Origin: a virus
Taxonomy: Duplodnaviria; Heunggongvirae; Uroviricota; Caudoviricetes
Direction: 5' to 3' (one strand)
Length of the DNA stretch: 52,368 bases
Virus record (IMG/VR): IMGVR_UViG_3300028591_008384
Positions 2,298 through 19,387 of this stretch are shown piece by piece. A program made the position numbers and the translations under genes. Each line of letters starts with the position of its first letter. Within the stretch, counting starts at the first letter, position 1. The notes under the pieces were generated by a model. It made no database searches. It was not told the origin of the DNA and worked only from the letters and a program-made list of their open reading frames with translations.

Positions 2298-3143
2298 ATG
2301 GAGAACTCCATGAACACAGCTAACTATAATCGTTTCATTGGCTTCATGGCCAAGCTGGAAAGCGCGGCCACGACTGACAAGGAACGGGACGTAATCAACT
2401 CTGCACGCGGCATGTTCGCCAAGTGCGCCCAGTTCGAAGGCACCGCGGCTACGATGGATGTCAACATGGCAGCCAAGTCCAGGTCCCCCGAATTCGGCAT
2501 GATGTCACACAATGGCCCAAAGGCCAAGCCGATGACACAGGCTGAAAAGGATGCCTTCAATGCCGATGTGGATGCCCGTAACAAGCAGTGGAAGAAGCAG
2601 CTCGGTAGCATGAAGCGCCGTGTCAAGACTGCCGAAAACACCCTCGAACAGTATGCCGAAATTGCTCCGGGTGAACTGGATGCCTGGGTGGAGAATACTC
2701 TCCGCCCGACCATCGAGGAATACCTTGACACCGAGGAAGGCGGTCTCGTCTGGGCCGACGAAAACAAGAAGACCGTCAAGAAGGAACGCGGTGCCGGCGG
2801 TTTCGTTACTCCGGCCATGAAGCGTGCCAAGTACGAAGACGACAAGAAGGCCTACATCGAACAGCTCAAGGCCAAGAAGGCCAAGGAAGAGGAAGCCAAG
2901 AAGGCCAAGGAAGCCGAAGCCAAGGGCGACGAAGCCAAGGAAGCTCCGAAGGCTGAACAGAAGGCTGAACCCGAAAAGAAGAAGGGCCTCTTCAGCCGCA
3001 TGAAGGCCAAGCTGTTCGGCGAATCCGTCGATACGTCCGACCTCCGTGCCTGCTTCGAAAGCGTGTTCGGCAACTCCGAACATCTTTCCGATGAAGCAAT
3101 CCGCGCCATCTGCTACAACGCAGTTGACCGTAAGTTCCGCTAA
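2298..3143 (+). CDS. K/E/A-rich protein, possible internal virion protein
   Basis: 281 aa ORF, strong codon bias, late-type motif upstream, LES/FEG/FES motifs. Confidence 0.8.
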   Translation: MENSMNTANYNRFIGFMAKLESAATTDKERDVINSARGMFAKCAQFEGTAATMDVNMAAKSRSPEFGMMSHNGPKAKPMTQAEKDAFNADVDARNKQWKKQLGSMKRRVKTAENTLEQYAEIAPGELDAWVENTLRPTIEEYLDTEEGGLVWADENKKTVKKERGAGGFVTPAMKRAKYEDDKKAYIEQLKAKKAKEEEAKKAKEAEAKGDEAKEAPKAEQKAEPEKKKGLFSRMKAKLFGESVDTSDLRACFESVFGNSEHLSDEAIRAICYNAVDRKFR

Positions 3144-3163
3144 TCGGAAAAGTAATTAGCCAG

Positions 3164-3190
3164 AAAGCACCGGCATGAGCCGGTGCTTTT
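3164..3190. terminator. bidirectional intrinsic terminator
   Basis: AAAGCACCGGC-ATGA-GCCGGTGCTTTT between convergent genes. Confidence 0.85.
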
Positions 3191-3197
3191 CGTATTA

Positions 3198-4436
3198 TCA
3201 AATATCCTTCTCCGGTTTCGCCATTCCTTCGATATGCTTGTATGCATACATGCAGACATTGGACAATCGAACATTAGACACATCCAACTTATGGATGACC
3301 TTGGAAGGATGCTGCATTTCGCAGGTATCCGGATCAAACGCCATATCCTTGTCATACGGGTCGCGCCAGGTGATTGCCATCAGGTCGGCATCGAACTTGA
3401 TATCCCTTACCGTCTTGGGGGCGCACTTCTGCAGCTCCTTGGTAATCCGTTCAACGATAAAATCGACATGGGAGCGAGCATGGTGGAACGAATCAGCACA
3501 GTGGCGATAGTTATTTTCAGATAATCTTTCATAGGCGCACATTACTTCCTTTACGCTAAACATCTGTGGATTAAGCGCAATGAGGTTGCTTGCCCAGTCA
3601 GCATCGGTCACAGTGATGTCGATTTTTTCTTCCTTCTTGATCCATGCCACCTCAGCCGAGAACGGCGAATCGTCCCTTCTGAACAATTCAGTACCAATCT
3701 TGACTAAGTCATACTTGTCGTATGAAGTATCGCCGAAGAAGTCAAACGGGGATTTTTTACCATCATTATCATCCGGGGCTTCACCAATTACGATATCTGG
3801 CGCAAGCGGCACAGCTAGACACTTGCTTTCCCAGAACTCATGGTAATGCCCCATTGGAGTGCCGGTATAATGGGCTTCAGTCATGACGAATCTCAGGTGA
3901 TACCGATATTTGTATTCACGACATACGCTCATCAAGAAATGGTCATTCGTATCAAGCCGTTCAACAGTATAGAAGATTGTACTATCACCAAACTTAATCT
4001 TCTTCCCATCCCCGCTCAACTTGATGAACTTACTCCCAGTCCACTCATGGATGATATTGTACACTCGGGTAGCGATGGGGAAAGCAGTGAGGATCAGCTG
4101 CAATTCGCGAATTGCTGTCAAGATTTCAATTCGCTTGGCATAGGATGCGCTGCTCTTGAAACTTGCCAGTATGCTGCGCAGTTTCTTAACACGGTCCGGG
4201 TCATAGGTCGCCGGGGCCTTCATTTTCATCAGCACATCGTCGATGTACTTCTGCACGACCGCCTTTCGCGCATTGTACTGGGCCATTTTGGCCTTATGCA
4301 GTGCCTTCTCAGCCTGGTCACATTCCTTCTGGAGAATAGCAAGGGTTTTCTTCTTGCCATTCAAGTTGAACTCGGCTGCGTCGATATCACCCTGCAACTT
4401 AGCAGCGGCCTTCTCAATGTCTGCGGTAATACTCAT
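3198..4436 (-). CDS. hypothetical protein with N-terminal coiled coil; distant paralog of 30182..31576
   Basis: 412 aa ORF; shared KYIDD/YDPDRV/RIEI/FPI pattern. Confidence 0.85.
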   Translation of the reverse strand: MSITADIEKAAAKLQGDIDAAEFNLNGKKKTLAILQKECDQAEKALHKAKMAQYNARKAVVQKYIDDVLMKMKAPATYDPDRVKKLRSILASFKSSASYAKRIEILTAIRELQLILTAFPIATRVYNIIHEWTGSKFIKLSGDGKKIKFGDSTIFYTVERLDTNDHFLMSVCREYKYRYHLRFVMTEAHYTGTPMGHYHEFWESKCLAVPLAPDIVIGEAPDDNDGKKSPFDFFGDTSYDKYDLVKIGTELFRRDDSPFSAEVAWIKKEEKIDITVTDADWASNLIALNPQMFSVKEVMCAYERLSENNYRHCADSFHHARSHVDFIVERITKELQKCAPKTVRDIKFDADLMAITWRDPYDKDMAFDPDTCEMQHPSKVIHKLDVSNVRLSNVCMYAYKHIEGMAKPEKDI

Positions 4437-12348: not shown

Positions 12349-13031
12349 GCTTCCACCTCGATTGCGTTTGTGCATTTCTTGTAGGCGGCCTCCGAATCCT
12401 TGGCCATTACAGTCACTGTTTCCTTTACAAGTCCCTTCCGCAGGCTCTTCTTCCTTGCCTTCATTTCGTCGGCAGAAAGGTAGCGGGTCACCTTGTAGGC
12501 ACGGTCGTCGCGGTCGTCGCGGAACAGTTCGGCCATCCGGTCGAACTCCTCGTCGCTAATTTCCCTGAACTGCATGTTCCTCAAGGTGTTGTAGTCGAGA
12601 ACGTAATGGAACTGACGGTCCAGGATGTCCTGGCATGCCATTTCGATGTACCCGCGGCCATACATCTGGTTTACCGCATGGATATATGTGACATGGAGGA
12701 ACTTCTTGGAGTTCCGGTACACGGGAACTCCCCGGAAATGGTAGGAGTTATCCCGGTATTCACGAGAATACAGGGACATCGGTTCGCAGGTGGAATAGAA
12801 CCCGCAGTCATCGACGACATCCTGGTAAGCGATAATCTCCTTGTCCATCAGGATGAAGTTCTTGCCGATGAACTTCTTGAAGAACCTGCCGACAAACCGG
12901 TCACGATCGGATGACCAGTAGTTATCCTTCTTCTTAATCTGCTCGTATTTCTCGTTTCTAGAGTCATCGTGGTTATCGAAAGTATCGATTACCCGTTTCA
13001 CGGATTCTTTGTCCAGCATGTCATATTTCAT
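12342..13031 (-). CDS. hypothetical protein (probable leaderless mRNA)
   Basis: 229 aa ORF, ATG 6 nt after -10. Confidence 0.8.
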   Translation of the reverse strand: MKYDMLDKESVKRVIDTFDNHDDSRNEKYEQIKKKDNYWSSDRDRFVGRFFKKFIGKNFILMDKEIIAYQDVVDDCGFYSTCEPMSLYSREYRDNSYHFRGVPVYRNSKKFLHVTYIHAVNQMYGRGYIEMACQDILDRQFHYVLDYNTLRNMQFREISDEEFDRMAELFRDDRDDRAYKVTRYLSADEMKARKKSLRKGLVKETVTVMAKDSEAAYKKCTNAIEVEAC

Positions 13032-13037
13032 ACGTTG

Positions 13038-13066
13038 AATATAGCAAAAAAGGCCCCCCGTGGCAA
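13038..13066 (-). promoter_or_regulatory. sigma70-like early promoter fused to a terminator
   Basis: TTGCCA-N17-TATATT; the -35 is the terminator loop. Confidence 0.85.
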
Positions 13067-13075
13067 CGGGGAGCC
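13046..13075 (-). terminator. intrinsic terminator closing the ncRNA island
   Basis: GGCTCCCCG-TTGCCA-CGGGGGGCC-TTTTTT. Confidence 0.85.
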
Positions 13076-13079
13076 TTCC

Positions 13080-13395
13080 TGAACAACGAAGTATCTACCA
13101 GTTAGGAAGCGTCTTAAAAGTTGGCAGCGCTTTTCCACTACTCAGTCACCACGCAAGGTCTAGTTATGCGATTGGACGCCGGCTTTGACGGACTGGTTAC
13201 CGTCACGAAGTCCGGCGGGATCCCTTTCATCCACCTACCCGTTATCCCGGCACGACGGGGTGTTCCTATTGCTAGGCGGTTTCTACTCGCTGCTGCTCTC
13301 TGACGTTGTTAGTGCCGGTGGAACCATAGCGTCCCGGTCCTTCAATGCGCCGTAGGGACCGGATTGGGCGAGTACGCTGCCGAGAAACCTCTCAG
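13080..13395 (-). ncRNA. unassigned ~310 nt pseudoknotted structured RNA
   Basis: GGTTTCT/AGAAACC, TACTCG/CGAGTA and TCCGGTCC/GGACCGGGA stems; crossing pairs CGGCAC/GTGCCG and GGCAGCG/CGCTGCC; no plausible ORF. Confidence 0.6.
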
Positions 13396-13397
13396 GC

Positions 13398-13577
13398 TCA
13401 ATCATCATACCAGTAGTCAGGCTTCTTCAAGAGCTCGGTCATGCGGCGCTCTCGGGCGACCTTCTTGAGGTCGATGCCGGCGCACCTGGCGAAACTCTTT
13501 GCCGCTTTTGCCTGTTTGTTCCAGCGGGCATTCTTTTGCTCCTGGGTTTCCTCGATATACTCTTTCTTCTCTTTCAT
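13398..13577 (-). CDS. small basic protein (59 aa, absent from the ORF track)
   Basis: MKEKKEYIEE...PDYWYDD*, GGAG RBS. Confidence 0.7.
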   Translation of the reverse strand: MKEKKEYIEETQEQKNARWNKQAKAAKSFARCAGIDLKKVARERRMTELLKKPDYWYDD

Positions 13578-13598
13578 GATTTCTCCATTTAATCTTAG

Positions 13599-13674
13599 TA
13601 TCCGCGGCAGGGCTCGAACCTGCGTAAATCACCTCTTTAGGAGAGAGGGGCCATTCCAACTTGACGACACGGAC
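13599..13674 (-). tRNA. tRNA-Arg(CCT)
   Basis: GTCCGTG/CGCGGAT acceptor; CCTCT-CTCCTAA-AGAGG anticodon arm; GCAGG-TTCGAGC-CCTGC T arm. Confidence 0.9.
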
Positions 13675-13692
13675 AAACTACATCAAAATAGA

Positions 13693-13771
13693 AGGTGCAA
13701 CGTGCACAGGAATTCAGCTCTCGGCACGCTCGACGCTCATCACGCTCCTCGGGATTTTAATCCTTGCACCT
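13693..13771 (-). ncRNA. unassigned ~80 nt structured RNA with box C/D-like motifs
   Basis: AGGTGCAA/TTGCACCT closing stem; GTGATGA...CTGA inside. Confidence 0.4.
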
Positions 13772-13779
13772 AAACAGGA

Positions 13780-13902
13780 AGCTCGGTGGCGCATTACCGG
13801 CCTTCCCCGAACGGTACGCCGGCCATTATTCCGCAACTTATGCTACTGCACTGGCCCCAAAGGATCTACCTGCGGGCTTACTTCCATCATCTCCACCGAG
13901 CT
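13780..13902 (-). ncRNA. unassigned ~120 nt structured RNA
   Basis: AGCTCGGTGG/CCACCGAGCT 10-bp closing stem; internal GGCCGG/CCGGT and GCC pairings. Confidence 0.5.
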
Positions 13903-13906
13903 CGTT

Positions 13907-14155
13907 TTAATCAGTTTCCTTCAAATCGCCAATGGCCGACATTACGGCGCCAGCAACACTCTTGATCTCTTGCTGGTTGTGCGTGTACAAAAGGTTCTCG
14001 TACTTGTCCAACTGAGAGTTGATGCTGGCAAGGACATCCTTCAACGTGGCCATCGGCCCGTACACCCTTATCAGGTCGAGGACCATTCCCTTGTGTTCCT
14101 TGGCGGAACAGAAGATTTCAAGGTCATTGTGAAATTCGTGTCTATCAGTAGCCAT
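13907..14155 (-). CDS. hypothetical protein
   Basis: MATDRHEF start, GGAGG RBS, 82 aa. Confidence 0.75.
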   Translation of the reverse strand: MATDRHEFHNDLEIFCSAKEHKGMVLDLIRVYGPMATLKDVLASINSQLDKYENLLYTHNQQEIKSVAGAVMSAIGDLKETD

Positions 14156-14177
14156 TTTTCCTCCATTAAAAGTAATC

Positions 14178-14262
14178 GACGCACGGCTTCCGGATTCCAA
14201 CACCGGGTTTCCTCCCGAATACAGGGAGGCGTCCTATGGAAATTAGACGATACCTATGCGCC
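14178..14262 (-). ncRNA. degenerate tRNA-like element (Glu-type body, 9-nt anticodon loop)
   Basis: TCGTCTAA..AGGAC D arm; CCTCC-CTGTATTCG-GGAGG; T loop TTGGAAT; irregular acceptor. Confidence 0.5.
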
Positions 14263-14325
14263 GTCTGCTTACCGAATGCGCCAGATGTTATCCATGGTTC
14301 ACCAGGCGCCCGTTGGGCAAATTCA

Positions 14326-14401
14326 TGGACGGTCTGGGACTCGAACCCAGGGCCAAGAGGTTATGAGTCTCCCGCTCGCATACCAACCGAGCTCACCGTC
14401 C
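14326..14401 (-). tRNA. tRNA with CAT anticodon (Ile2 or elongator Met)
   Basis: GGACGGT/ACCGTCC acceptor; loop CTCATAA; CTGGG-TTCGAGT-CCCAG; lacks initiator hallmarks. Confidence 0.88.
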
Positions 14402-14420
14402 TGAATAACTGCATTATCAA

Positions 14421-14603
14421 ACTCGTGCTCGGGGACGCCTTGAACTGCCTCCTTCGACCGTTTTACACCGCCAACGACCGAGACTATCGGTGGAAACCTA
14501 TCGTAGACATCCAAGATGCTACCTGTAGGAACGGGCCCATTGTCGTTTCATCATCCTCCCCACGGGAGAACTCCACGTCCGTAAATTTCCCTGGTGCATG
14601 GGT
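14421..14603 (-). ncRNA. 6S RNA-like rod
   Basis: 183 nt; apical hairpin at the midpoint (14503..14522); AACGAC/GTCGTT, CTCC/GGAG and GGACGT/GCGTCC stems flank a central bubble. Confidence 0.6.
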
Positions 14604-14608
14604 ATATT

Positions 14609-14683
14609 AGTGCCTCCGGGAGGATTCTATCCTCCGATGCGAAGCTCTTCAGGCTTACGCTCTACCAATTGAGCTAGAGCCAC
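14609..14683 (-). tRNA. tRNA-Phe(GAA), atypical
   Basis: TAGCTCAATTGGTAGAGC D arm; loop CTGAAGA; non-canonical T loop ATAGAAT; 2 extra nt before the acceptor. Confidence 0.7.
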
Positions 14684-14689
14684 CAAAAT

Positions 14690-15342
14690 TTTGCCCATGC
14701 GTTTGACAGCCGCATTTTGCCTTTGCTAAGGGCAAAACCCGTTGGGCAACGGGTGCCGGTCTCCACTGTCCCTGTTGACCGAGCCGAGGGAAACTACCTT
14801 CACCGGGGTTGTCAATACCCCGCCAGGGTAGACGACATGGCGAACGGCGTATAGCGAGGAACTTCCGCGCCACTTGGCCCTATGATGGGCACCGTCCGCT
14901 GTATTTTTCCGATTTCCCACAGAGGCACGTCCTACGGGGGCAACTTCATGATTAGAAGTCCTAGCTTCATCGGGAAGCTTAACAAACTTGTTCGCCGAGA
15001 TTTTGCGCAAGCCCTCTCGGCGGGAATCACTCTGGGTAATCACTTCCAGTTTGGCATCGGGATGCCGCAGCGCTTTCCAATAGCTGCCGGAACGTCCCTC
15101 GGGACACTACGCCACTGTTCCGATGCGGCATGCCGTGCCCTAACCCGTCAGCACGGTAACGGTGCATTAGTCGCCACCGATTTCCGTGGCTTTCATGCAG
15201 ACCATGGCGTTAACCGCAGCCATGGATACGGGCCCCGCGACACGAGGTGCCACGGGAACATCTCCCTACCTGGCCAGAGGGCTGCATGTGTGGTTCTTTG
15301 TTTCCACCCGCACGGAATACTCTTTCAACCGGTAACCCGGCC
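14690..15342 (-). ncRNA. large (~650 nt) ornate structured RNA, unassigned
   Basis: >12 hairpins and domain closures, e.g. CATGCAG/CTGCATG, CGCCGAGA/TCTCGGCG, CCCGTTG/CAACGGG, TTTTGCC/GGCAAAA; flanked by tRNA-like elements. Confidence 0.6.
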
Positions 15343-15345
15343 AAT

Positions 15346-15427
15346 GTGCTACAGCAGGTTTCGAACCTCGCGTCTCTCGCGTCAGTTGCCCGAGGCGGGT
15401 GTGTTCAACCAACTACACTACGCAGCC
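15346..15427 (-). ncRNA. tRNA-like RNA (Asp-type body) with anticodon replaced by a GCAA hairpin
   Basis: TAGTGTAGTTGGTTGAACAC D arm; TTCGAAA T loop; anticodon loop C-TCGG-GCAA-CTGA-C. Confidence 0.75.
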
Positions 15428-15434
15428 TGTTTTT

Positions 15435-15560
15435 CTTCCATGTGTCCAGTATGTCGCCGTGCACTGCGACAATTAAAGTGTCTGGCTTCCTTGGTGGTGC
15501 CAGCGGCCCACGGGGTCCTTTCGCAGCCCACGCGGGAATACTCGGTTCAACCATTTCAGG
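15435..15560 (-). ncRNA. unassigned structured spacer RNA
   Basis: CTGGC/GCCAG and GTCGC/GCGAC hairpins between tRNA-like elements. Confidence 0.3.
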
Positions 15561-15566
15561 CTATTG

Positions 15567-15663
15567 CGACACATGGAGGATTCGAATCCCCGACTGCCCC
15601 GGCATTTGCTGCCGGTGGCCGTTTTACCTGCCAGGGAGCGACCCCAGCCAAAACTCATGTGCA
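15567..15663 (-). ncRNA. tRNA-like RNA with hairpin-extended anticodon arm and expanded D loop
   Basis: GCACAT/ATGTGT acceptor; TTCGAAT T loop; GGCA-GCAAA-TGCC in place of the anticodon; GGGG-TCGC-TCCC in the D loop. Confidence 0.65.
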
Positions 15664-15782
15664 CTGACCTTTCTTCCTACGTCAAGTAAGTCGCCATTGT
15701 TCCTTTGGCGCCCGTTGTTAAAAATGATACAGTCCTTTCTCACTGTGACCTAGCCTACTCGTTCGACCGCTTTCGCGACTAT

Positions 15783-15865
15783 TCGGATCAACTGGGACTT
15801 TAACCCAGAGCCTCCAACGAGGGTTGCCCCGGTCGGTGTTCTAGTCATTTGGAACTAAAGACCCG
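15783..15865 (-). ncRNA. tRNA-like RNA with anticodon replaced by a GCAA hairpin
   Basis: CGGGTC/GATCCG acceptor; GTTC/GAAC D stem; CCGAC-C-GGG-GCAA-CCC-TC-GTTGG; CTGGG-TTAAAGT-CCCAG. Confidence 0.7.
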
Positions 15866-15897
15866 CGACTTTCGGCTTAGACCTGTTCTATCCAAAA

Positions 15898-15975
15898 AAG
15901 ATTCGATGGTGCCCGGTTTAGAACCGGGAAAATCCCACGAAGTGGGCACCACCTTCACACCACCATCGAATTCTT
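15898..15975 (-). ncRNA. tRNA mimic with extended acceptor stem (YrlA/Y-RNA-like architecture)
   Basis: ~14-bp closing stem; CCCGG-TTCTAAA-CCGGG T arm; shrunken CCCAC-TTC-GTGGG arm. Confidence 0.5.
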
Positions 15976-15977
15976 AG

Positions 15978-16049
15978 TAGCAGGAACCGGACTCGAACCG
16001 GTGTCTAAGGGTTATGGGCCCTTCAAGGAACCAACTCCTCCATCCTGCA
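15978..16049 (-). tRNA. initiator tRNA-fMet(CAT)
   Basis: 1:72 mismatch, A11-U24, three G-C pairs in the anticodon stem (AAGGG-CCCATAA-CCCTT). Confidence 0.9.
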
Positions 16050-16066
16050 ACTAAAAACTCAACAGC

Positions 16067-16073
16067 GTTTATA
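16067..16073 (-). promoter_or_regulatory. putative late promoter inside the RNA island
   Basis: TATAAAC 18 nt upstream of the tRNA-fMet 5' end. Confidence 0.5.
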
Positions 16074-16079
16074 TTCTAG

Positions 16080-16153
16080 CTCCGAAGAACGGAATCGAAC
16101 CGCTAACCGTCACATTACAAATGTGCTGCTCTACCTGGTTGAGCTACTCCGGA
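16080..16153 (-). tRNA. tRNA-Thr(TGT)
   Basis: TCCGGAG/CTTCGGA acceptor; loop TTTGTAA; AGCGG-TTCGATT-CCGTT. Confidence 0.88.
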
Positions 16154-16204
16154 TTATTTAGCTGATAGGTGTTATTAGGCTATATCTTGGACCTAATTCC
16201 ACCT

Positions 16205-16860
16205 TAGACAAAAAGCGCCGGGGTGGCTCATGGACTTAACCAGGGGAGAGCCACCCCTTGCCGCTTGCCGTTCTCGCATTTTTCGCTCCCTGGGGCGCCT
16301 CGGGGAGACAATCAAGTCATCCGAGGTACAATAGTAAGCAAGCGACTGTACCGCTACCGTAGCCTGTCGGGGCCATACCTTACCAGCCTTACTCGAGATA
16401 GCCGGGGACGGCATGTTGGTCTGCGGTAATAAAAGGTTGTCACCGGTGCGGTTAGGCGTGGGCTTTGCGGGCTTTCACCCTCGACCAGACGATGAACCCT
16501 AAGGTATTGTCCAGCCAAAGTGTTGCTAAGGATGTTGGAACGATATATAGTGATCGTGACGCTACCTGTCATAAGTTTCGCGGATAGGATTTGTCCCCTA
16601 TATTGCCCGCGCTGTTTGCCACACCTGTTAATGCCTGGTGGCCACGATGGCGCCGGAGTCCTAAGCACAGGCGCTATTAACACCTGCTCATTTAGACGAC
16701 CGCGTTCAATGGGTGGTAGCATTTTCTTCCAGCCCCTACGTGTCCCGGCCAGCCGGATGCGCATCCTGCACTGGTCTGCGAATTTCGGAAACCGAGGATA
16801 CCTAAGACGGCGCGACCGTCGGGCGGAATGCTACTAGAAACCCTATTCAGTATCCATTTA
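16205..16860 (-). ncRNA. large (~650 nt) ornate structured RNA, unassigned
   Basis: GGATAC/GTATCC, TAGCATT/AATGCTA, TGTTAAT/ATTAACA and GACGG/CCGTC stems; 3' GGGGTGGCTC/GAGCCACCCC then TTTTT. Confidence 0.6.
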
Positions 16861-16865
16861 AATTT

Positions 16866-17046
16866 ATCCGCATGCGTGGTGTTTGGGACTTCCACCCGTG
16901 TCAACGGCCTGTAACCGAACCCTGCATGCGGATCCTCGGGGAGAGCTACTTCCCCGGGGACCGGCTATTAAACACACTGGGCCTATTAGCGGGCCCTTAC
17001 CGCTTTACGCTCGCGTGGCCGGTACGCGGCTTCACGCATGCAACCT
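16866..17046 (-). ncRNA. ~180 nt structured RNA with two competing closing stems
   Basis: 3' CACGCATGCGGAT pairs with either 5' GCATGCGTG or internal ATCCGCATGC. Confidence 0.5.
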
Positions 17047-17089
17047 TCCCCAGAACAGGGTCGGCGTTATGGCATTTCGCCAAGATTTT

Positions 17090-17180
17090 AGTCCTCCGCC
17101 TTCGCGCTATGCCCGGAACACTCGAACCGGTGAATGCGCTCTGCCCCGTGCTGAAAGGCGGTCCTACCGACGGAAGGACT
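17090..17180 (-). ncRNA. tRNA-derived mosaic RNA
   Basis: 11-bp closure AGTCCT(T)CCGTC/GGCGGAGGACT; GGTAGGAC D-like segment; CCGG-TTCGAGTGTT-CCGG T-like arm. Confidence 0.45.
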
Positions 17181-17189
17181 CTAAAAGGA

Positions 17190-17290
17190 TGCGCATGACC
17201 GCAGTCCACCTTTATCTGCCAGTATTTGGCCGTCCCGGACACGGCAGGGCTCAGTAGAATCTGGAATTACCAGCCATACACTCATGCGCA
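17190..17290 (-). ncRNA. ~100 nt cloverleaf-like RNA
   Basis: TGCGCATGA/TCATGCGCA closure; CTGG/CCAG and GCCGT/ACGGC arms. Confidence 0.45.
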
Positions 17291-17296
17291 ATTTCG

Positions 17297-17654
17297 TGGA
17301 GGTGAGGGGAGTCGAACCCCTGTCCTAAACGCCATTCCAGTTCAACCATATCGCCATCAATCTATTCGGGCCCTGACCTGTTGCCCAAGGTGATCTAACC
17401 AGTGAGGGGTCTGGATTAAGGTAAGGTAGGCCATTCAATCCATAACTCCGGCCTAGATTTGAGAGATATGCACTTGGTCCCAGGATTTATTCCTCTCGCT
17501 TGTCCCAGGCAGCAGCATAACTACCGATTAGGCAGCCATGCGGCAGGCGAATGCATTGTCAGCATTTATTGTTTTAGTCCGTTTTTACGAAGCCACAGAC
17601 CAACTTCGGGCGAGGTCTCCATGGTCCGATGCCCAGTCGAAACCAAGCACCCCC
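17297..17654 (-). ncRNA. ssrA: tmRNA
   Basis: 5' GGGGGTGCTTGGTTTCGAC; 3' GGGGTTCGACTCCCCTCACCTCCA; tag ORF (A)ADNAFACRMAA* after ATAAAT. Confidence 0.95.
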
Positions 17655-17659
17655 AAAGA

Positions 17660-17845
17660 GCATGGGGCTAGTTCCCTATCACCCCAAGGAACCGGTCGAA
17701 CGAGTATCCAGGAAACTCAATCGTCCAATCGGCGACATTCGTAGGAACAAGGGGAATCCCGATTCGCTACCCCTCATGGGTCGTCCTCCCGTAAGGGAGC
17801 CAAGCAACCAAAACCCATGGACCACTTAATTGATCGTCCAGACTG
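17660..17845 (-). ncRNA. unassigned ~185 nt structured RNA
   Basis: CATGGGT/ACCCATG, GGGG/CCCC and GAGT/ACTC stems; 3' GGTTCC/GGGAACT plus GGGG/CCCC pseudoknot. Confidence 0.45.
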
Positions 17846-17856
17846 TTCCATTTTCG

Positions 17857-17930
17857 TCGGAGAAACCGGATTCGAACCGATGGCCTCGTGCGCCCAAGGC
17901 ACGCGCTCTACCAGACTGAGCTACACTCCG
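17857..17930 (-). tRNA. tRNA-Pro(TGG)
   Basis: CGGAGTG/TTCTCCG acceptor; CGTGC-CTTGGGC-GCACG; TTCGAAT T loop. Confidence 0.92.
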
Positions 17931-17934
17931 ATGT

Positions 17935-18352
17935 GCCCCTTTGCCTCACGGCGCCTTTGACGGCGAAACTCCCAGAGGGGGCTGACTCTTCCTACTTCTA
18001 CGATCATCCCCTTCCCGACGTTCTACGGTCAGTCCAGGAACAACGCCCCCAGCCGAGGGGCTTAGGTCGTTACGTCGGCGCACAGTTTGCACGCCCAGCA
18101 CATGGGGAGAATACCCGGATTGCATGCAACCCTGTACTCTTTACTATCAAGACCATGCCATGTTTTGGTACGACGAGGAACTACGATGCCGCTGCAGGCG
18201 GCCACTTTTCAAACTTTTCGGCGGTACGGGCAGGTAAAATCATAGGGGAGTAAACCCAGTTAAATACCCGTACCACCGCTGCACAATTAAAACGCTTCCG
18301 AACTGTCAATCTTCTGACCTGGCTCTCGGCCCGGTCGCCGTTCTTCCCGGCT
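17935..18352 (-). ncRNA. 5' structured RNA(s) of the island, ~420 nt, unassigned
   Basis: starts at the promoter TSS; GCCG/CGGC, GGTACGGG/CCCGTACC, GCCGC/GCGGC and GCCCC/GGGGC stems; no credible ORF. Confidence 0.5.
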
Positions 18353-18358
18353 GTACTT

Positions 18359-18387
18359 AATGTAGTAAATTACATCGCGAATGTCAA
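18359..18387 (-). promoter_or_regulatory. promoter of the ncRNA island
   Basis: consensus -35 TTGACA-N17-TACATT. Confidence 0.85.
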
Positions 18388-18403
18388 CCAAAAAGAGCGA
18401 AAT

Positions 18404-19387
18404 TTATTGCAGCTTATAATCTTTTCCAAGCTGCTTTATCAGTTCCATCGCAAATGGAGCATGTTTTTCCACATACCCAAGCAAATCTTCCCATTCGACG
18501 ATGCAAAGTTTGCTCAAACCCTTGGACAGATCCGTCAAGTTTGACCAGAACATGCCATCTGCATATTTGCACTCGTCCCTGAAATTCCAACTCAAGGGCG
18601 CGACACATGGACCGTGCAAGAATACCTCACCATGGCCATACTTATCCAGGGTAACGTCGTCGATACGCATTATCTTACTCCACTCATCATTTTTATCCCA
18701 GAAGACATACTTGCCTTTCAGACAGCCGGCGAGTACACCGAGAACCTGCTTCTCGATACCGTTATAGCTATTGACAATCTCGGAAACGTGCTCGGTGGCA
18801 TCCTTGATGGTATCAGTCAGCAGGGAGGTGAGGTCATCCCTTTTACCACGGAGTTCTTTGGTCACTTCCTGTATCTTCTTGTACACATAAAGGTCATGTC
18901 GTGCATTCACAGCATCCCAGTATTTCCTTATCATGGTGTCCACCATCGGGCCAAGGCGGTCATCCCCTATCACAGACGGCAACTTACCAAGTGCACCAAA
19001 CAGTGCCTTGTATGCTGCGGTATCTTCCGCCTGTTCTTTGAGAGCAACCGCGATTTCATCAAGGTATTTGAGGACGACCTCCACCAGCAGTTCGAACCAT
19101 AGTTGATGTTCAGCTTGCCATGAATCCGTTTCTTCCTTTGCCCGTTTCAATACAATATCAACGTCGGCCTGTCGTCCGCCATGGAGAGCGAGGACATCAT
19201 ATTGCTTACGTTCCGCCCTGGTTTTCTGGCGAAGCAGCGAATACAGGTAGTTAATTGCCGTGCCGTCCCTGCCAATGTAATGATATATGGAACGCTTGAA
19301 CTCGTCAACTGTAAAGTTGGCAAAATTCACTTTGTAGTGTTCCGAATATGCTTCCTTGGCTTCTTTGAGGAATTGCTTTCCGTCCAT
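18404..19387 (-). CDS. hypothetical protein
   Basis: 327 aa ORF. Confidence 0.85.
   Translation of the reverse strand: MDGKQFLKEAKEAYSEHYKVNFANFTVDEFKRSIYHYIGRDGTAINYLYSLLRQKTRAERKQYDVLALHGGRQADVDIVLKRAKEETDSWQAEHQLWFELLVEVVLKYLDEIAVALKEQAEDTAAYKALFGALGKLPSVIGDDRLGPMVDTMIRKYWDAVNARHDLYVYKKIQEVTKELRGKRDDLTSLLTDTIKDATEHVSEIVNSYNGIEKQVLGVLAGCLKGKYVFWDKNDEWSKIMRIDDVTLDKYGHGEVFLHGPCVAPLSWNFRDECKYADGMFWSNLTDLSKGLSKLCIVEWEDLLGYVEKHAPFAMELIKQLGKDYKLQ

What the first reader, a model, noticed from the sequence alone, without database searches (positions are those of the whole stretch)
14690..15342. Large ornate RNA candidate A (~650 nt)
Seen: a dense run of hairpins and multi-stem domains (CATGCAG/CTGCATG, CCATGGC/GCCATGG, GCCAC/GTGGC, CCGTGC/GCACGG, GCCGCA/TGCGGC, CGCCGAGA/TCTCGGCG, AGCTTC/GAAGCT, CCCGTTG/CAACGGG, TTTTGCC/GGCAAAA) with no credible ORF. 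Established: ROOL and GOLLD are giant structured RNAs of this size class that occur near tRNA genes in phages, and ROOL was named for rumen data. Inference: this is either a member of those classes or a new one.
Basis: partly seen in the sequence, partly recalled or inferred. Interest (0 to 1): 0.72.

Follow-up and report, generated by a model that had tools for sequence, protein, structure and literature searches.

The report
Three shuffled phage RNA cassettes
The supposed 650-base giant RNA is a run of three separately inherited RNA cassettes in a rumen phage's tRNA island; two of them are new, well-folded RNAs of about 250 and 300 bases whose job is unknown, and in sister phages they sit on either side of a Ro60-type RNA quality-control gene.

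Summary
The hairpins are real, there is no gene for a protein, and the RNA strand is the minus strand. But 14690-15342 is not one large RNA.

About 25 related metagenome contigs show three cassettes that come and go on their own:
- the 3' tail of a tRNA-like unit (15260-15474);
- S2+M2 (14987-15259; M2 core 14983-15231, 249 nt);
- S3+M1 (14685-14986, 302 nt).

M2 occurs alone in some contigs and M1 alone in others. In one phage their order is reversed, with 4.3 kb and protein genes between them. The cassette edges recur to within a few bases and often abut tRNA genes.

M2 and M1 are each folded RNAs supported by covariation:
- M2: 98.6% of pair cells kept and 8 pairs changed on both sides, including a pseudoknot helix.
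- M1: 96% of pair cells kept and 7 such pairs, plus a homologue about 68% identical that keeps every helix.

Rfam gives no match to ROOL, GOLLD, OLE or any intron, even at E up to 10.

In sister phages M1 and M2 flank a TROVE (Ro60-like) gene, next to a tmRNA and tRNAs. This window has no such gene.

Most likely the cassettes are co-transcribed and cut out as stable RNAs, like T4 RNA C and RNA D. Their function is not shown.

The scan had already noted an M2 look-alike in another genome (e1-5456443).

The parts
15260..15345 (-). S1: the 3' trailer of the neighbouring tRNA-like cassette M3 (whole cassette 15260-15474, tRNA-like body 15346-15427). It holds three small hairpins.
   Evidence: The block 15262-15474 stands alone in L019 and 15270-15340 stands alone in L021; each then runs straight into a tRNA. 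L032 and L033 join 15260 directly to 14986.
15232..15259 (-). S2: a 10-bp hairpin (15234-15256) that travels with M2 in window-type phages.
   Evidence: It is lost together with M2 in L032 and L033. In L015, G.U pairs become G-C. L017-type phages have a different sequence here.
14983..15231 (-). M2: a 249-nt structured RNA with about ten helices. A new family.
   Evidence: The alignment is A7 (10 sequences). 98.6% of pair cells are standard pairs, 8 pairs changed on both sides, and 0 of 500 shuffles reach the observed score. Sequences not used to derive the structure keep 7/7 (L034), 7/7 (L035), 14/19 (L041) and 8/11 (L044) of their changed pairs. M2 stands alone between tRNA-Pro and tRNA-Met in L017, L018, L020, L041 and L042.
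15088..15131 (-). Proposed H-type pseudoknot inside M2. Helix P-x pairs 15125-15131 with 15109-15115. Helix P-e pairs 15117-15122 (in the P-x loop) with 15088-15093.
   Evidence: P-e is 100% paired, and 3 of its 6 pairs changed on both sides. P-x is 98.6% paired with 1 such pair. The rival nested fold with a 13-bp closing stem scores lower and fails in L041.
14918..14986 (-). S3: two small hairpins at the 5' end of the M1 cassette.
   Evidence: The cassette edge at 14985/14986 recurs in L032, L033, L036, L037 and L038, each time next to a different upstream partner. The first hairpin also precedes the diverged M1 in L020. S3 is absent before M1 in L013 and L034.
14685..14917 (-). M1 core: a 233-nt structured RNA. 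It has a three-way junction, five further hairpins, and the invariant single-stranded motif AAUCGGAAAAAUACAGCGG. A new family.
   Evidence: The alignment is A5 (9 sequences). 96.2% of pair cells are paired, 7 pairs changed on both sides, and 0 of 500 shuffles reach the observed score. The L020 homologue (nhmmer E 6e-19, about 68% identical) keeps every helix with different stem sequences. The 3' end at 14685 abuts a tRNA(CAT) in L014, L016, L032 and L038.
14619..14684 (-). Ghost tRNA, with no acceptor-stem pairing and an odd T-loop. It marks the 3' edge of M1 and lies just outside the finding. It belongs to a further cassette, 14402-14684.
   Evidence: The Rfam tRNA model matches at 37.2 bits, over model positions 8-63 only. 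The stretch 14402/14403-14684 is absent in L014 and L038.
18359..18387 (-). The only sigma-70-like promoter match upstream of the island on the RNA strand (TTGACA-17-TACATT).
   Evidence: That scan found no promoter-like or terminator-like site on the minus strand inside 14600-15500.

Best explanation
Candidate A is a composite of three cassettes. On the minus (RNA) strand it reads 5' to 3':
- the tail of a tRNA-like cassette (to 15260);
- the S2+M2 cassette (15259 to about 14987);
- the S3+M1 cassette (14986 to 14685).

Shown:
- Each cassette is an independent unit of inheritance. Recombination between related rumen jumbo phages shuffles them, and the edges are sharp, recurrent and often at tRNA genes.
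- M2 (about 250 nt, pseudoknotted) and M1 (about 230-300 nt, with a three-way junction and hairpins) are each under selection for their RNA fold on the minus strand.
- They belong to no Rfam family.

Inferred:
- The island (tRNAs, a tmRNA, tRNA mimics, M1, M2 and others) is transcribed from the promoter near 18387 as a long precursor.
- RNase P cuts at the 5' end of the next tRNA or tRNA-like element. RNase Z or RNase E cuts in the A/U-rich linkers (UUUUAAGUUU, AAAAUUUU, UUUGUUAAG).
- These cuts would release M2 and M1 as separate stable RNAs, as for RNA C and RNA D of the T4 tRNA cluster.

Most speculative:
- They would act in trans as folded RNAs that bind or decoy proteins of the tRNA and RNA quality-control machinery.
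- In sister phages both lie within 1.5 kb of a phage TROVE (Ro60-like) gene and a tmRNA.
For: Independent cassettes:
- M2 occurs without M1 or S1 in L017, L018 and L020 at 88-90% identity while the flanks cannot be aligned. It also occurs this way in L035, L041 and L042.
- S3+M1 occurs without M2 in L032, L033, L036, L037 and L038. The junctions are 14986|15260, 14985|15448 and 14986|16211.
- In L020, M1 lies 4.3 kb upstream of M2, with protein genes between them.
- L013 and L034 carry other segments between M2 and M1.
- The IMG/VR relatives G001 and G002 share the island at about 90% identity but lack both RNAs.

Structure:
- The counts for M2 and M1 are, and the helix-by-helix check of the diverged M1 is.
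- 40 of 456 M2 pair cells are G.U. These would be A.C mismatches on the plus strand, so the RNA strand is minus.

Edges at tRNAs:
- M2 ends about 5 nt before a tRNA-Met in L020 and L035, and starts 70 nt after a tRNA-Pro in L041 and L042.
- M1 ends 0-10 nt before a tRNA(CAT) in four contigs.

Orientation and signals:
- Every RNA gene in every island is on one strand.
- The scan found no internal promoter or terminator.

Ro60 context:
- A TROVE gene lies between M1 and M2 in L020 and L041, and upstream of M2 in L018, L042 and L044.
Against: - Co-transcription, processing and stability are therefore all inferred.
- All homologues come from one narrow group of rumen or gut phage contigs at 65-99% identity. 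The compensatory changes therefore represent few independent events.
- The M2 structure was partly hand-derived from the same sequences it was first scored on.
- Folding z-scores for the single modules are unremarkable.
- The window (52 kb) and the relatives G001 and G002 have no TROVE gene. The Ro60 link therefore does not hold for this phage's own copy, unless a host protein or a distant phage gene serves.
- Neither M1 nor M2 has the long terminal stem that defines Y RNAs.
Confidence: 0.72

Rival explanations
1. One giant ornate RNA of about 650 nt, either a divergent ROOL or GOLLD or a new class of that size.
For: - The context is right: phage, beside tRNAs, rumen-type samples. ROOL and GOLLD are often near tRNA islands (10.1101/2024.12.08.627333; PMC5737381).
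- The whole-region fold gives z -3.47.
Against: - There is no ROOL, GOLLD or OLE match even at E up to 10.
- The parts are inherited separately, in either order, and up to 4.3 kb apart.
Confidence: 0.04
2. M1 and M2 are cis-acting leaders of the tRNA(CAT) gene that usually follows them. They would guide processing, folding or modification of that tRNA and would not be free-standing RNAs.
For: - M2 is followed by a tRNA(CAT) within about 5 nt in L020 and L035, and within 137 nt in L017.
- M1 is followed directly by a tRNA(CAT) in L014, L016, L032 and L038.
Against: - The tRNAs that follow differ in sequence.
- In the window M2 is followed by M1, not a tRNA, and M1 is followed by a ghost tRNA with no acceptor stem.
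- In L041, nearly 500 nt separate M2 from the next tRNA, which is tRNA-Arg.
- A fold of 250-300 nt with a pseudoknot is far more than known tRNA leaders need.
Confidence: 0.1
3. The cassettes are selfish or hitchhiking DNA. Homing endonucleases and recombination at tRNA genes would spread them, and the RNA folds would do nothing for the phage.
For: - Presence and absence are mosaic, with sharp edges.
- Close relatives (G001, G002) do without them.
- In one further contig a gene with faint SegE_GIY-YIG and NUMOD3 hits lies about 400 nt from M1.
- One breakpoint, at 14659, falls inside the shared D-arm sequence of tRNAs.
Against: - Stems covary while loops stay fixed across 65-90% identity. That is purifying selection on the fold, not neutral drift.
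- The position next to the TROVE gene, the tmRNA and tRNA-Pro is kept across phage types.
- Being mobile does not exclude having a function.
Confidence: 0.08
4. The region encodes protein: the 261-aa plus-strand ORF 14882-15667 or the 105-aa minus-strand ORF 14726-15043.
For: Both ORFs exist under table 11. Gene callers made 'proteins' of them in public assemblies.
Against: - Neither has a Pfam or PHROG match.
- In the plus-strand ORF, substitutions are even over the codon positions, and 1-2-nt indels shift the frame in L013, L014 and L015.
- The plus-strand ORF runs antisense through tRNA-like genes.
- Alternative stop-codon readings do not yield a coherent gene.
Confidence: 0.01

Closest known systems
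Bacteriophage T4 RNA C and RNA D, the small stable RNAs of the T4 tRNA gene region (PMC3014915; PMC9697503)
   Same: - They are encoded inside a phage tRNA cluster.
- They are non-coding and have no assigned function.
- The window's phage was read as T4-like in earlier notes of this scan.
   Different: - There is no sequence match: blastn of the island against 50,697 GenBank phage records hit only tRNAs.
- M1 and M2 are roughly twice as long (from my memory of about 120-140 nt for the T4 RNAs).
- The island here holds many more such RNAs.
- Processing of M1 and M2 is inferred, not shown.
ROOL RNA (Rfam; Weinberg et al. 2017, PMC5737381)
   Same: It is found in rumen-type data and in phages or prophages, often near tRNA islands. 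It is a complex fold with pseudoknots and no known function.
   Different: [quoted passage not shown] Here there are three independent cassettes of 215, 273 and 302 nt.
- There is no covariance-model match.
GOLLD RNA (10.1101/2024.12.08.627333)
   Same: It is encoded by phages or prophages near tRNAs. One member lies downstream of a tRNA-Met, and tRNAs sometimes sit inside its linker.
   Different: GOLLD members often exceed 800 nt and share a universally conserved 3' domain (stems P1-P27 in the solved member). There is no model match, and no single unit of that size here.
Bacterial and phage Y RNAs (YrlA), partners of Ro60 (Chen et al. 2014, PMC4201824)
   Same: In sister phages M1 and M2 lie within 1.5 kb of a TROVE (Ro60-like) gene on the same strand, beside tRNA mimics. 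Y RNAs are likewise encoded next to Ro60.
   Different: - Y RNAs are 80-130 nt, with a long terminal stem that holds the Ro60 site. M1 and M2 are 250-300 nt and show no such stem.
- There is no YrlA or Y_RNA model match.
- The window itself has no TROVE gene.

Membership tests
ROOL RNA | Match to the Rfam ROOL covariance model | tested here: not met
   cmscan of the window at gathering scores, of 12800-18600 at E up to 10, and of 14677-15345 alone at E up to 10. It returned only tRNA, tmRNA and sub-threshold noise such as miRNA hairpins at 14-19 bits.
ROOL RNA | [quoted passage not shown] | tested here: not met
   The region splits into cassettes that occur separately in related contigs.
ROOL RNA / GOLLD RNA | Location in phages or prophages, often near tRNA islands | tested here: met
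   It lies inside a 5.4-kb island with five tRNAs called by ARAGORN (Rfam adds the ghost tRNA), weaker tRNA-like elements and a tmRNA, all on the same strand.
GOLLD RNA | Match to the Rfam GOLLD model; more than 800 nt with a conserved 3' domain | tested here: not met
   No match. The largest independent unit here is about 300 nt.
OLE RNA | Match to the Rfam OLE model | tested here: not met
   No match.
Group I / group II introns | Match to the intron covariance models | tested here: not met
   No Rfam intron match at E up to 10.
Group I / group II introns | A host gene restored when the element is absent | tested here: not met
   Where a cassette is absent, other cassettes or a tRNA start abut the gap; no split gene is rejoined.
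Y RNA / YrlA | 80-130 nt, with a long stem formed by the 5' and 3' ends that carries the Ro60 site (PMC4201824); match to an Rfam model | tested here: not met
   No Y_RNA or YrlA match. The covariation-supported folds of M1 and M2 have no terminal closing stem.
Y RNA / YrlA | Encoded next to a Ro60 (TROVE) gene | tested here: inconclusive
   Met in L018, L020, L041, L042 and L044. Not met in the window, G001 or G002, which have no TROVE match.
T4 RNA C / RNA D type (stable RNAs of phage tRNA clusters) | Encoded within the phage tRNA gene cluster and co-oriented with the tRNAs | tested here: met
T4 RNA C / RNA D type (stable RNAs of phage tRNA clusters) | Sequence homology to T4 RNA C or RNA D | tested here: not met
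   blastn (words of 11) of 13000-18500 against the GenBank phage collection hit only tRNA genes.
T4 RNA C / RNA D type (stable RNAs of phage tRNA clusters) | Accumulates as a discrete processed RNA during infection | not testable with these tools

The most novel reading that the evidence does not exclude
M1 and M2 are a new kind of large (250-300 nt), pseudoknotted partner or client RNA of phage Ro60 (TROVE) proteins. Together with the phage tmRNA and the sealed-anticodon tRNA mimics, they would form a mobile phage RNA quality-control or counter-defence module. Phages without their own Ro60, like this one, would use the host's. They may also pair with themselves through the palindromic GUUAAC loop of M2 and the complementary UUGACA and UGUCAA loops of M1.
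Probability: 0.18. Interest if true: 0.75.

Novelty: new variant of a known kind. Interest (0 to 1): 0.5.

Why it matters
- It corrects a tempting misreading. A dense 650-nt run of hairpins beside phage tRNAs need not be a ROOL- or GOLLD-type giant RNA. The cassette distribution in relatives is a quick test for that.
- It adds two covariation-supported structured RNA families that Rfam does not hold. It also shows that jumbo-phage tRNA islands are mosaics of exchangeable RNA cassettes, far richer than the two orphan RNAs of the T4 tRNA cluster.
- The placement on either side of a phage Ro60-like gene in sister phages gives a concrete, testable lead to function for RNAs of a kind that has stayed unexplained since T4 RNA C and D.

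Tried and rejected
Collection searches that found no homologue of M1 or M2:
- Rfam at gathering scores and at E up to 10, on the window, the island, the region alone and eight related loci.
- GenBank phages by blastn, which hit only tRNAs.
- IMG/VR by pseudo-protein patterns and three exact motifs.
- GTDB genomes. The pseudo-protein scan found nothing. The 19-nt M1 motif gave 10 hits (L022-L031), about the number expected by chance, and nhmmer matched only the seed itself.

Other checks:
- Alternative genetic codes (TGA=W, TAG=Q, TAA=Q) give no coherent ORF.
- The T4 late-promoter word TATAAATA is absent from the island.
- nhmmer and covariance model R1 found no further M1 or M2 copies or paralogues in the window, the other spacers, L039, L043, G001 or G002.
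- For M2, the RNAalifold fold with a 13-bp closing stem (columns 6-18 with 144-158) gave 98.9% paired cells and 3 double-sided pairs. The hand model gave 100% and 5 on the same alignment, and the RNAalifold fold's extended helix fails in L041. Six helices are common to both folds.
- A long-range GGGAAA/UUUCCC helix in M1 was dropped because L013 and L020 break it.
- I sent no complex-prediction job, because it handles only protein partners.

Full report
SETTING

The window is a piece of an uncultured jumbo phage; no whole genome is held. Between the minus-strand ORFs ending at 13031 and starting at 18404 lies a 5.4-kb stretch without credible genes. On the minus strand it carries:
- tRNA-Pro, tRNA-Thr, two tRNA(CAT) and tRNA-Arg;
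- a tmRNA (17296-17654);
- weaker tRNA-like matches at 14619-14676 and 15346-15427.

The finding (14690-15342) fills the gap between those two weak matches.

- The hairpins are there. The 669-nt gap folds to -272 kcal/mol on the minus strand (z -3.47, only 20 shuffles) and -255 on the plus strand (z -2.41).
- The parts folded alone are not remarkable. M2 gives z -1.92 on the minus strand and -3.01 on the plus strand. M1 gives -1.60 and -1.93. Stability therefore shows neither function nor strand.
- There is no protein. The 261-aa plus-strand ORF and the 105-aa minus-strand ORF have no Pfam or PHROG match.
- In the plus-strand ORF, substitutions are spread evenly over the codon positions (44/42/44 in L015), and 1-2-nt indels break the frame in three homologues.
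- Rfam gives nothing for ROOL, GOLLD, OLE, introns or Y RNAs, even at E up to 10 on the 669 nt alone.

FINDING RELATIVES

- GenBank phages share only tRNAs with the island.
- Two IMG/VR contigs (G001, G002) share the flanking gene, and G001 also shares much of the island at 85-96% identity. Neither has this region.
- Translating the spurious ORFs and using them as queries proved effective. It pulled 11 metagenome loci. Through public 'proteins' called on the same DNA it pulled seven more.
- Most come from samples whose names point to ruminant-gut studies. That is my reading of the labels, not a tested fact.

THE REGION IS A MOSAIC

blastn and alignments give these arrangements:

| Contigs | Arrangement |
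|---|---|
| L011, L014, L015 | The whole region is present |
| L017, L018, L020 | Only 14983-15231 (M2), at 88-90% identity; flanks cannot be aligned; lies between tRNA-Pro and tRNA-Met |
| L035 | M2 is followed about 5 nt later by a tRNA-Met and then a protein gene |
| L032, L033 | 15260 joined directly to 14986, so S2+M2 is cleanly absent |
| L036, L037 | 15448 joined to 14985 |
| L038 | 16211 joined to 14986; 14685 joined straight to the tRNA-Met that sits at 14401 in the window |
| L016 | 15041-15453 deleted |
| L019, L021 | Only 15262-15474 kept, running straight into a tRNA |
| L013, L034 | Other segments lie between M2 and M1 |
| L020 | A diverged M1 lies 4.3 kb upstream of M2, with protein genes between |

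Edges at about 15260, 14984-14986 and 14685 recur next to different partners. The junctions are A/U-rich. One breakpoint, at 14659, lies in the D-arm sequence that tRNAs share.

Homologues break it without compensation.

The 650 nt are therefore three cassettes: the tail of the tRNA-like unit 15260-15474, S2+M2, and S3+M1.

M2 IS A FOLDED RNA

I derived ten helices from six sequences (A1). All 342 pair cells were standard pairs, and 5 pairs had changed on both sides.

Four sequences found later tested the model:
- L034 and L035 kept 7/7 and 7/7 of their changed pairs.
- The more distant L041 and L044 kept 14/19 and 8/11. Several of the misses come from a one-column MAFFT shift in one helix.

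On ten sequences:
- 98.6% of cells pair;
- 8 pairs changed on both sides;
- 0 of 500 shuffles reach the observed values;
- versions with one strand slid by one to three columns pair at only 28-44%.

The pseudoknot rests on two helices:
- Helix P-e (15117-15122 with 15088-15093) is 100% paired, and three of its six pairs covary.
- It uses the loop of helix P-x (15125-15131 with 15109-15115), which has its own compensatory change. Together they make an H-type pseudoknot.
- RNAalifold's nested alternative scores lower and fails in L041.

The many G.U pairs (40 of 456 cells) would be A.C mismatches on the other strand. This sets the RNA strand as minus.

M1 IS A FOLDED RNA

- On nine sequences, 96.2% of cells pair and 7 pairs changed on both sides, with 0 of 500 shuffles reaching that.
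- The L020 homologue (nhmmer E 6e-19, about 68% identical) keeps each of ten helices at the same place with different stem sequences. Examples are GACGGU/GCCGUU becoming GCGUAG/CUACGC, and ACCCGUU/AACGGGU becoming UCCUCU/AGAGGA.
- The loops (UUGAC, GUCAA, CUUAGCAAA) and the motif AAUCGGAAAAAUACAGCGG stay fixed.
- One hairpin is deleted in a second subtype (L015, L032, L036, L038).

HOW IT MOST LIKELY WORKS

Shown: the cassettes are independent, the folds are selected, the RNAs are co-oriented with tRNAs, and the edges lie at tRNA starts.

Inferred: a single precursor from the promoter-like site at 18387-18359. The scan found no promoter-like or terminator-like site on the RNA strand inside the region. 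RNase P, RNase Z and RNase E would then release the RNAs. T4 makes two orphan RNAs from its tRNA region in this general way (PMC3014915, PMC9697503).

CONTEXT CLUE: A Ro60-LIKE GENE IN SISTER PHAGES

- In L020 a 515-aa ORF between M1 and M2 carries a TROVE domain (40.9 bits against a cut-off of 23) and a weaker VWA match (18.6 bits, below its cut-off of 27).
- A close homologue (P0016, 80% identical) matches solved TROVE proteins at E 2.6e-16.
- Contigs fetched through its homologues repeat the order. L041 has M1, about 1 kb of spacer, tmRNA, TROVE, an ORF, tRNA-Pro, 70 nt, then M2.
- L042, L044 and L018 have TROVE, then tRNA-Pro, then M2.
- Y RNAs are the known partners of Ro60 and are encoded beside it (PMC4201824). 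But they are 80-130 nt with a terminal stem, which M1 and M2 lack.
- The window, G001 and G002 have no TROVE match.

I treat the Ro60 link as a lead with a probability of about 0.2, not a finding.

VERDICT

- The giant-RNA reading is rejected.
- Two new structured RNA families, riding as exchangeable cassettes in phage tRNA islands, are well supported.
- Their function is open.

Noticed in passing
L020:6237-7784 (-); L018:7645-9188 (-); L041:4193-5611 (+): Sister phages encode a TROVE (Ro60-like) protein, with a weaker VWA match, inside the tRNA/tmRNA island. The protein search returned thousands of homologues at E <= 1e-10; the 120 listed are 60-90% identical, and many sit on contigs of about 100 kb.
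   Followed up: partly
window 14402-14684 (-): The ghost tRNA (Phe-like GAA loop, no acceptor pairing, ATAGAAT T-loop) and the 3' spacer after it form their own cassette, which is absent in L014 and L038. The spacer part (14414-14605) sits between M2 and M1 in L013.
   Followed up: partly
window 15209-15214 (M2 hairpin loop): The 10-nt loop of the first M2 hairpin holds the palindrome GUUAAC. In L015 it is GUUGAC, which can still pair with itself through G.U. This could allow loop-loop dimers.
   Followed up: no
window 14810-14815 and 14703-14708 (M1 loops): Two M1 hairpin loops, UUGACA and UGUCAA, are complementary. The 5-nt core UUGAC/GUCAA is invariant in all nine sequences while the stems covary. 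This may be a kissing-loop contact.
   Followed up: partly
Contig listed without DNA: A 309-aa gene with faint SegE_GIY-YIG and NUMOD3 hits lies about 400 nt upstream of M1 in another phage contig. It may be the homing endonuclease that drives the cassette exchange.
   Followed up: no
L020:9280-9350 (-): A tRNA-like element whose anticodon arm is replaced by a CCGG-CGCAAG-CCGG mini-hairpin sits directly upstream of the diverged M1. It is the same kind of element as the three at 15346-15865 in the window.
   Followed up: no
L044:2957-3184 (+) and 3112-3365 (-): Two overlapping M2 copies in opposite orientation lie at the end of a 3.5-kb contig. This is probably an assembly foldback rather than biology.
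   Followed up: no
L001:10270-16333: The IMG/VR relative G001 has about 6 kb inserted between the start of the 327-aa flanking gene and the island, and it lacks window 13896-15728 altogether.
   Followed up: no
window 13661-14404 (+) and 14882-15667 (+): Two long plus-strand ORFs (247 and 261 aa) run antisense through tRNA genes. They are artefacts of G+C-rich structured RNA, yet they appear as 'proteins' in public databases. That made them useful handles for finding homologous DNA.
   Followed up: yes
window 17296-17654; L013; L038; L039; L041: The phage tmRNAs differ in their tags: ADNAFACRMAA in the window type, ANNNAFAYSAAA in L039 and ADTSMTYSVAA in L041.
   Followed up: no
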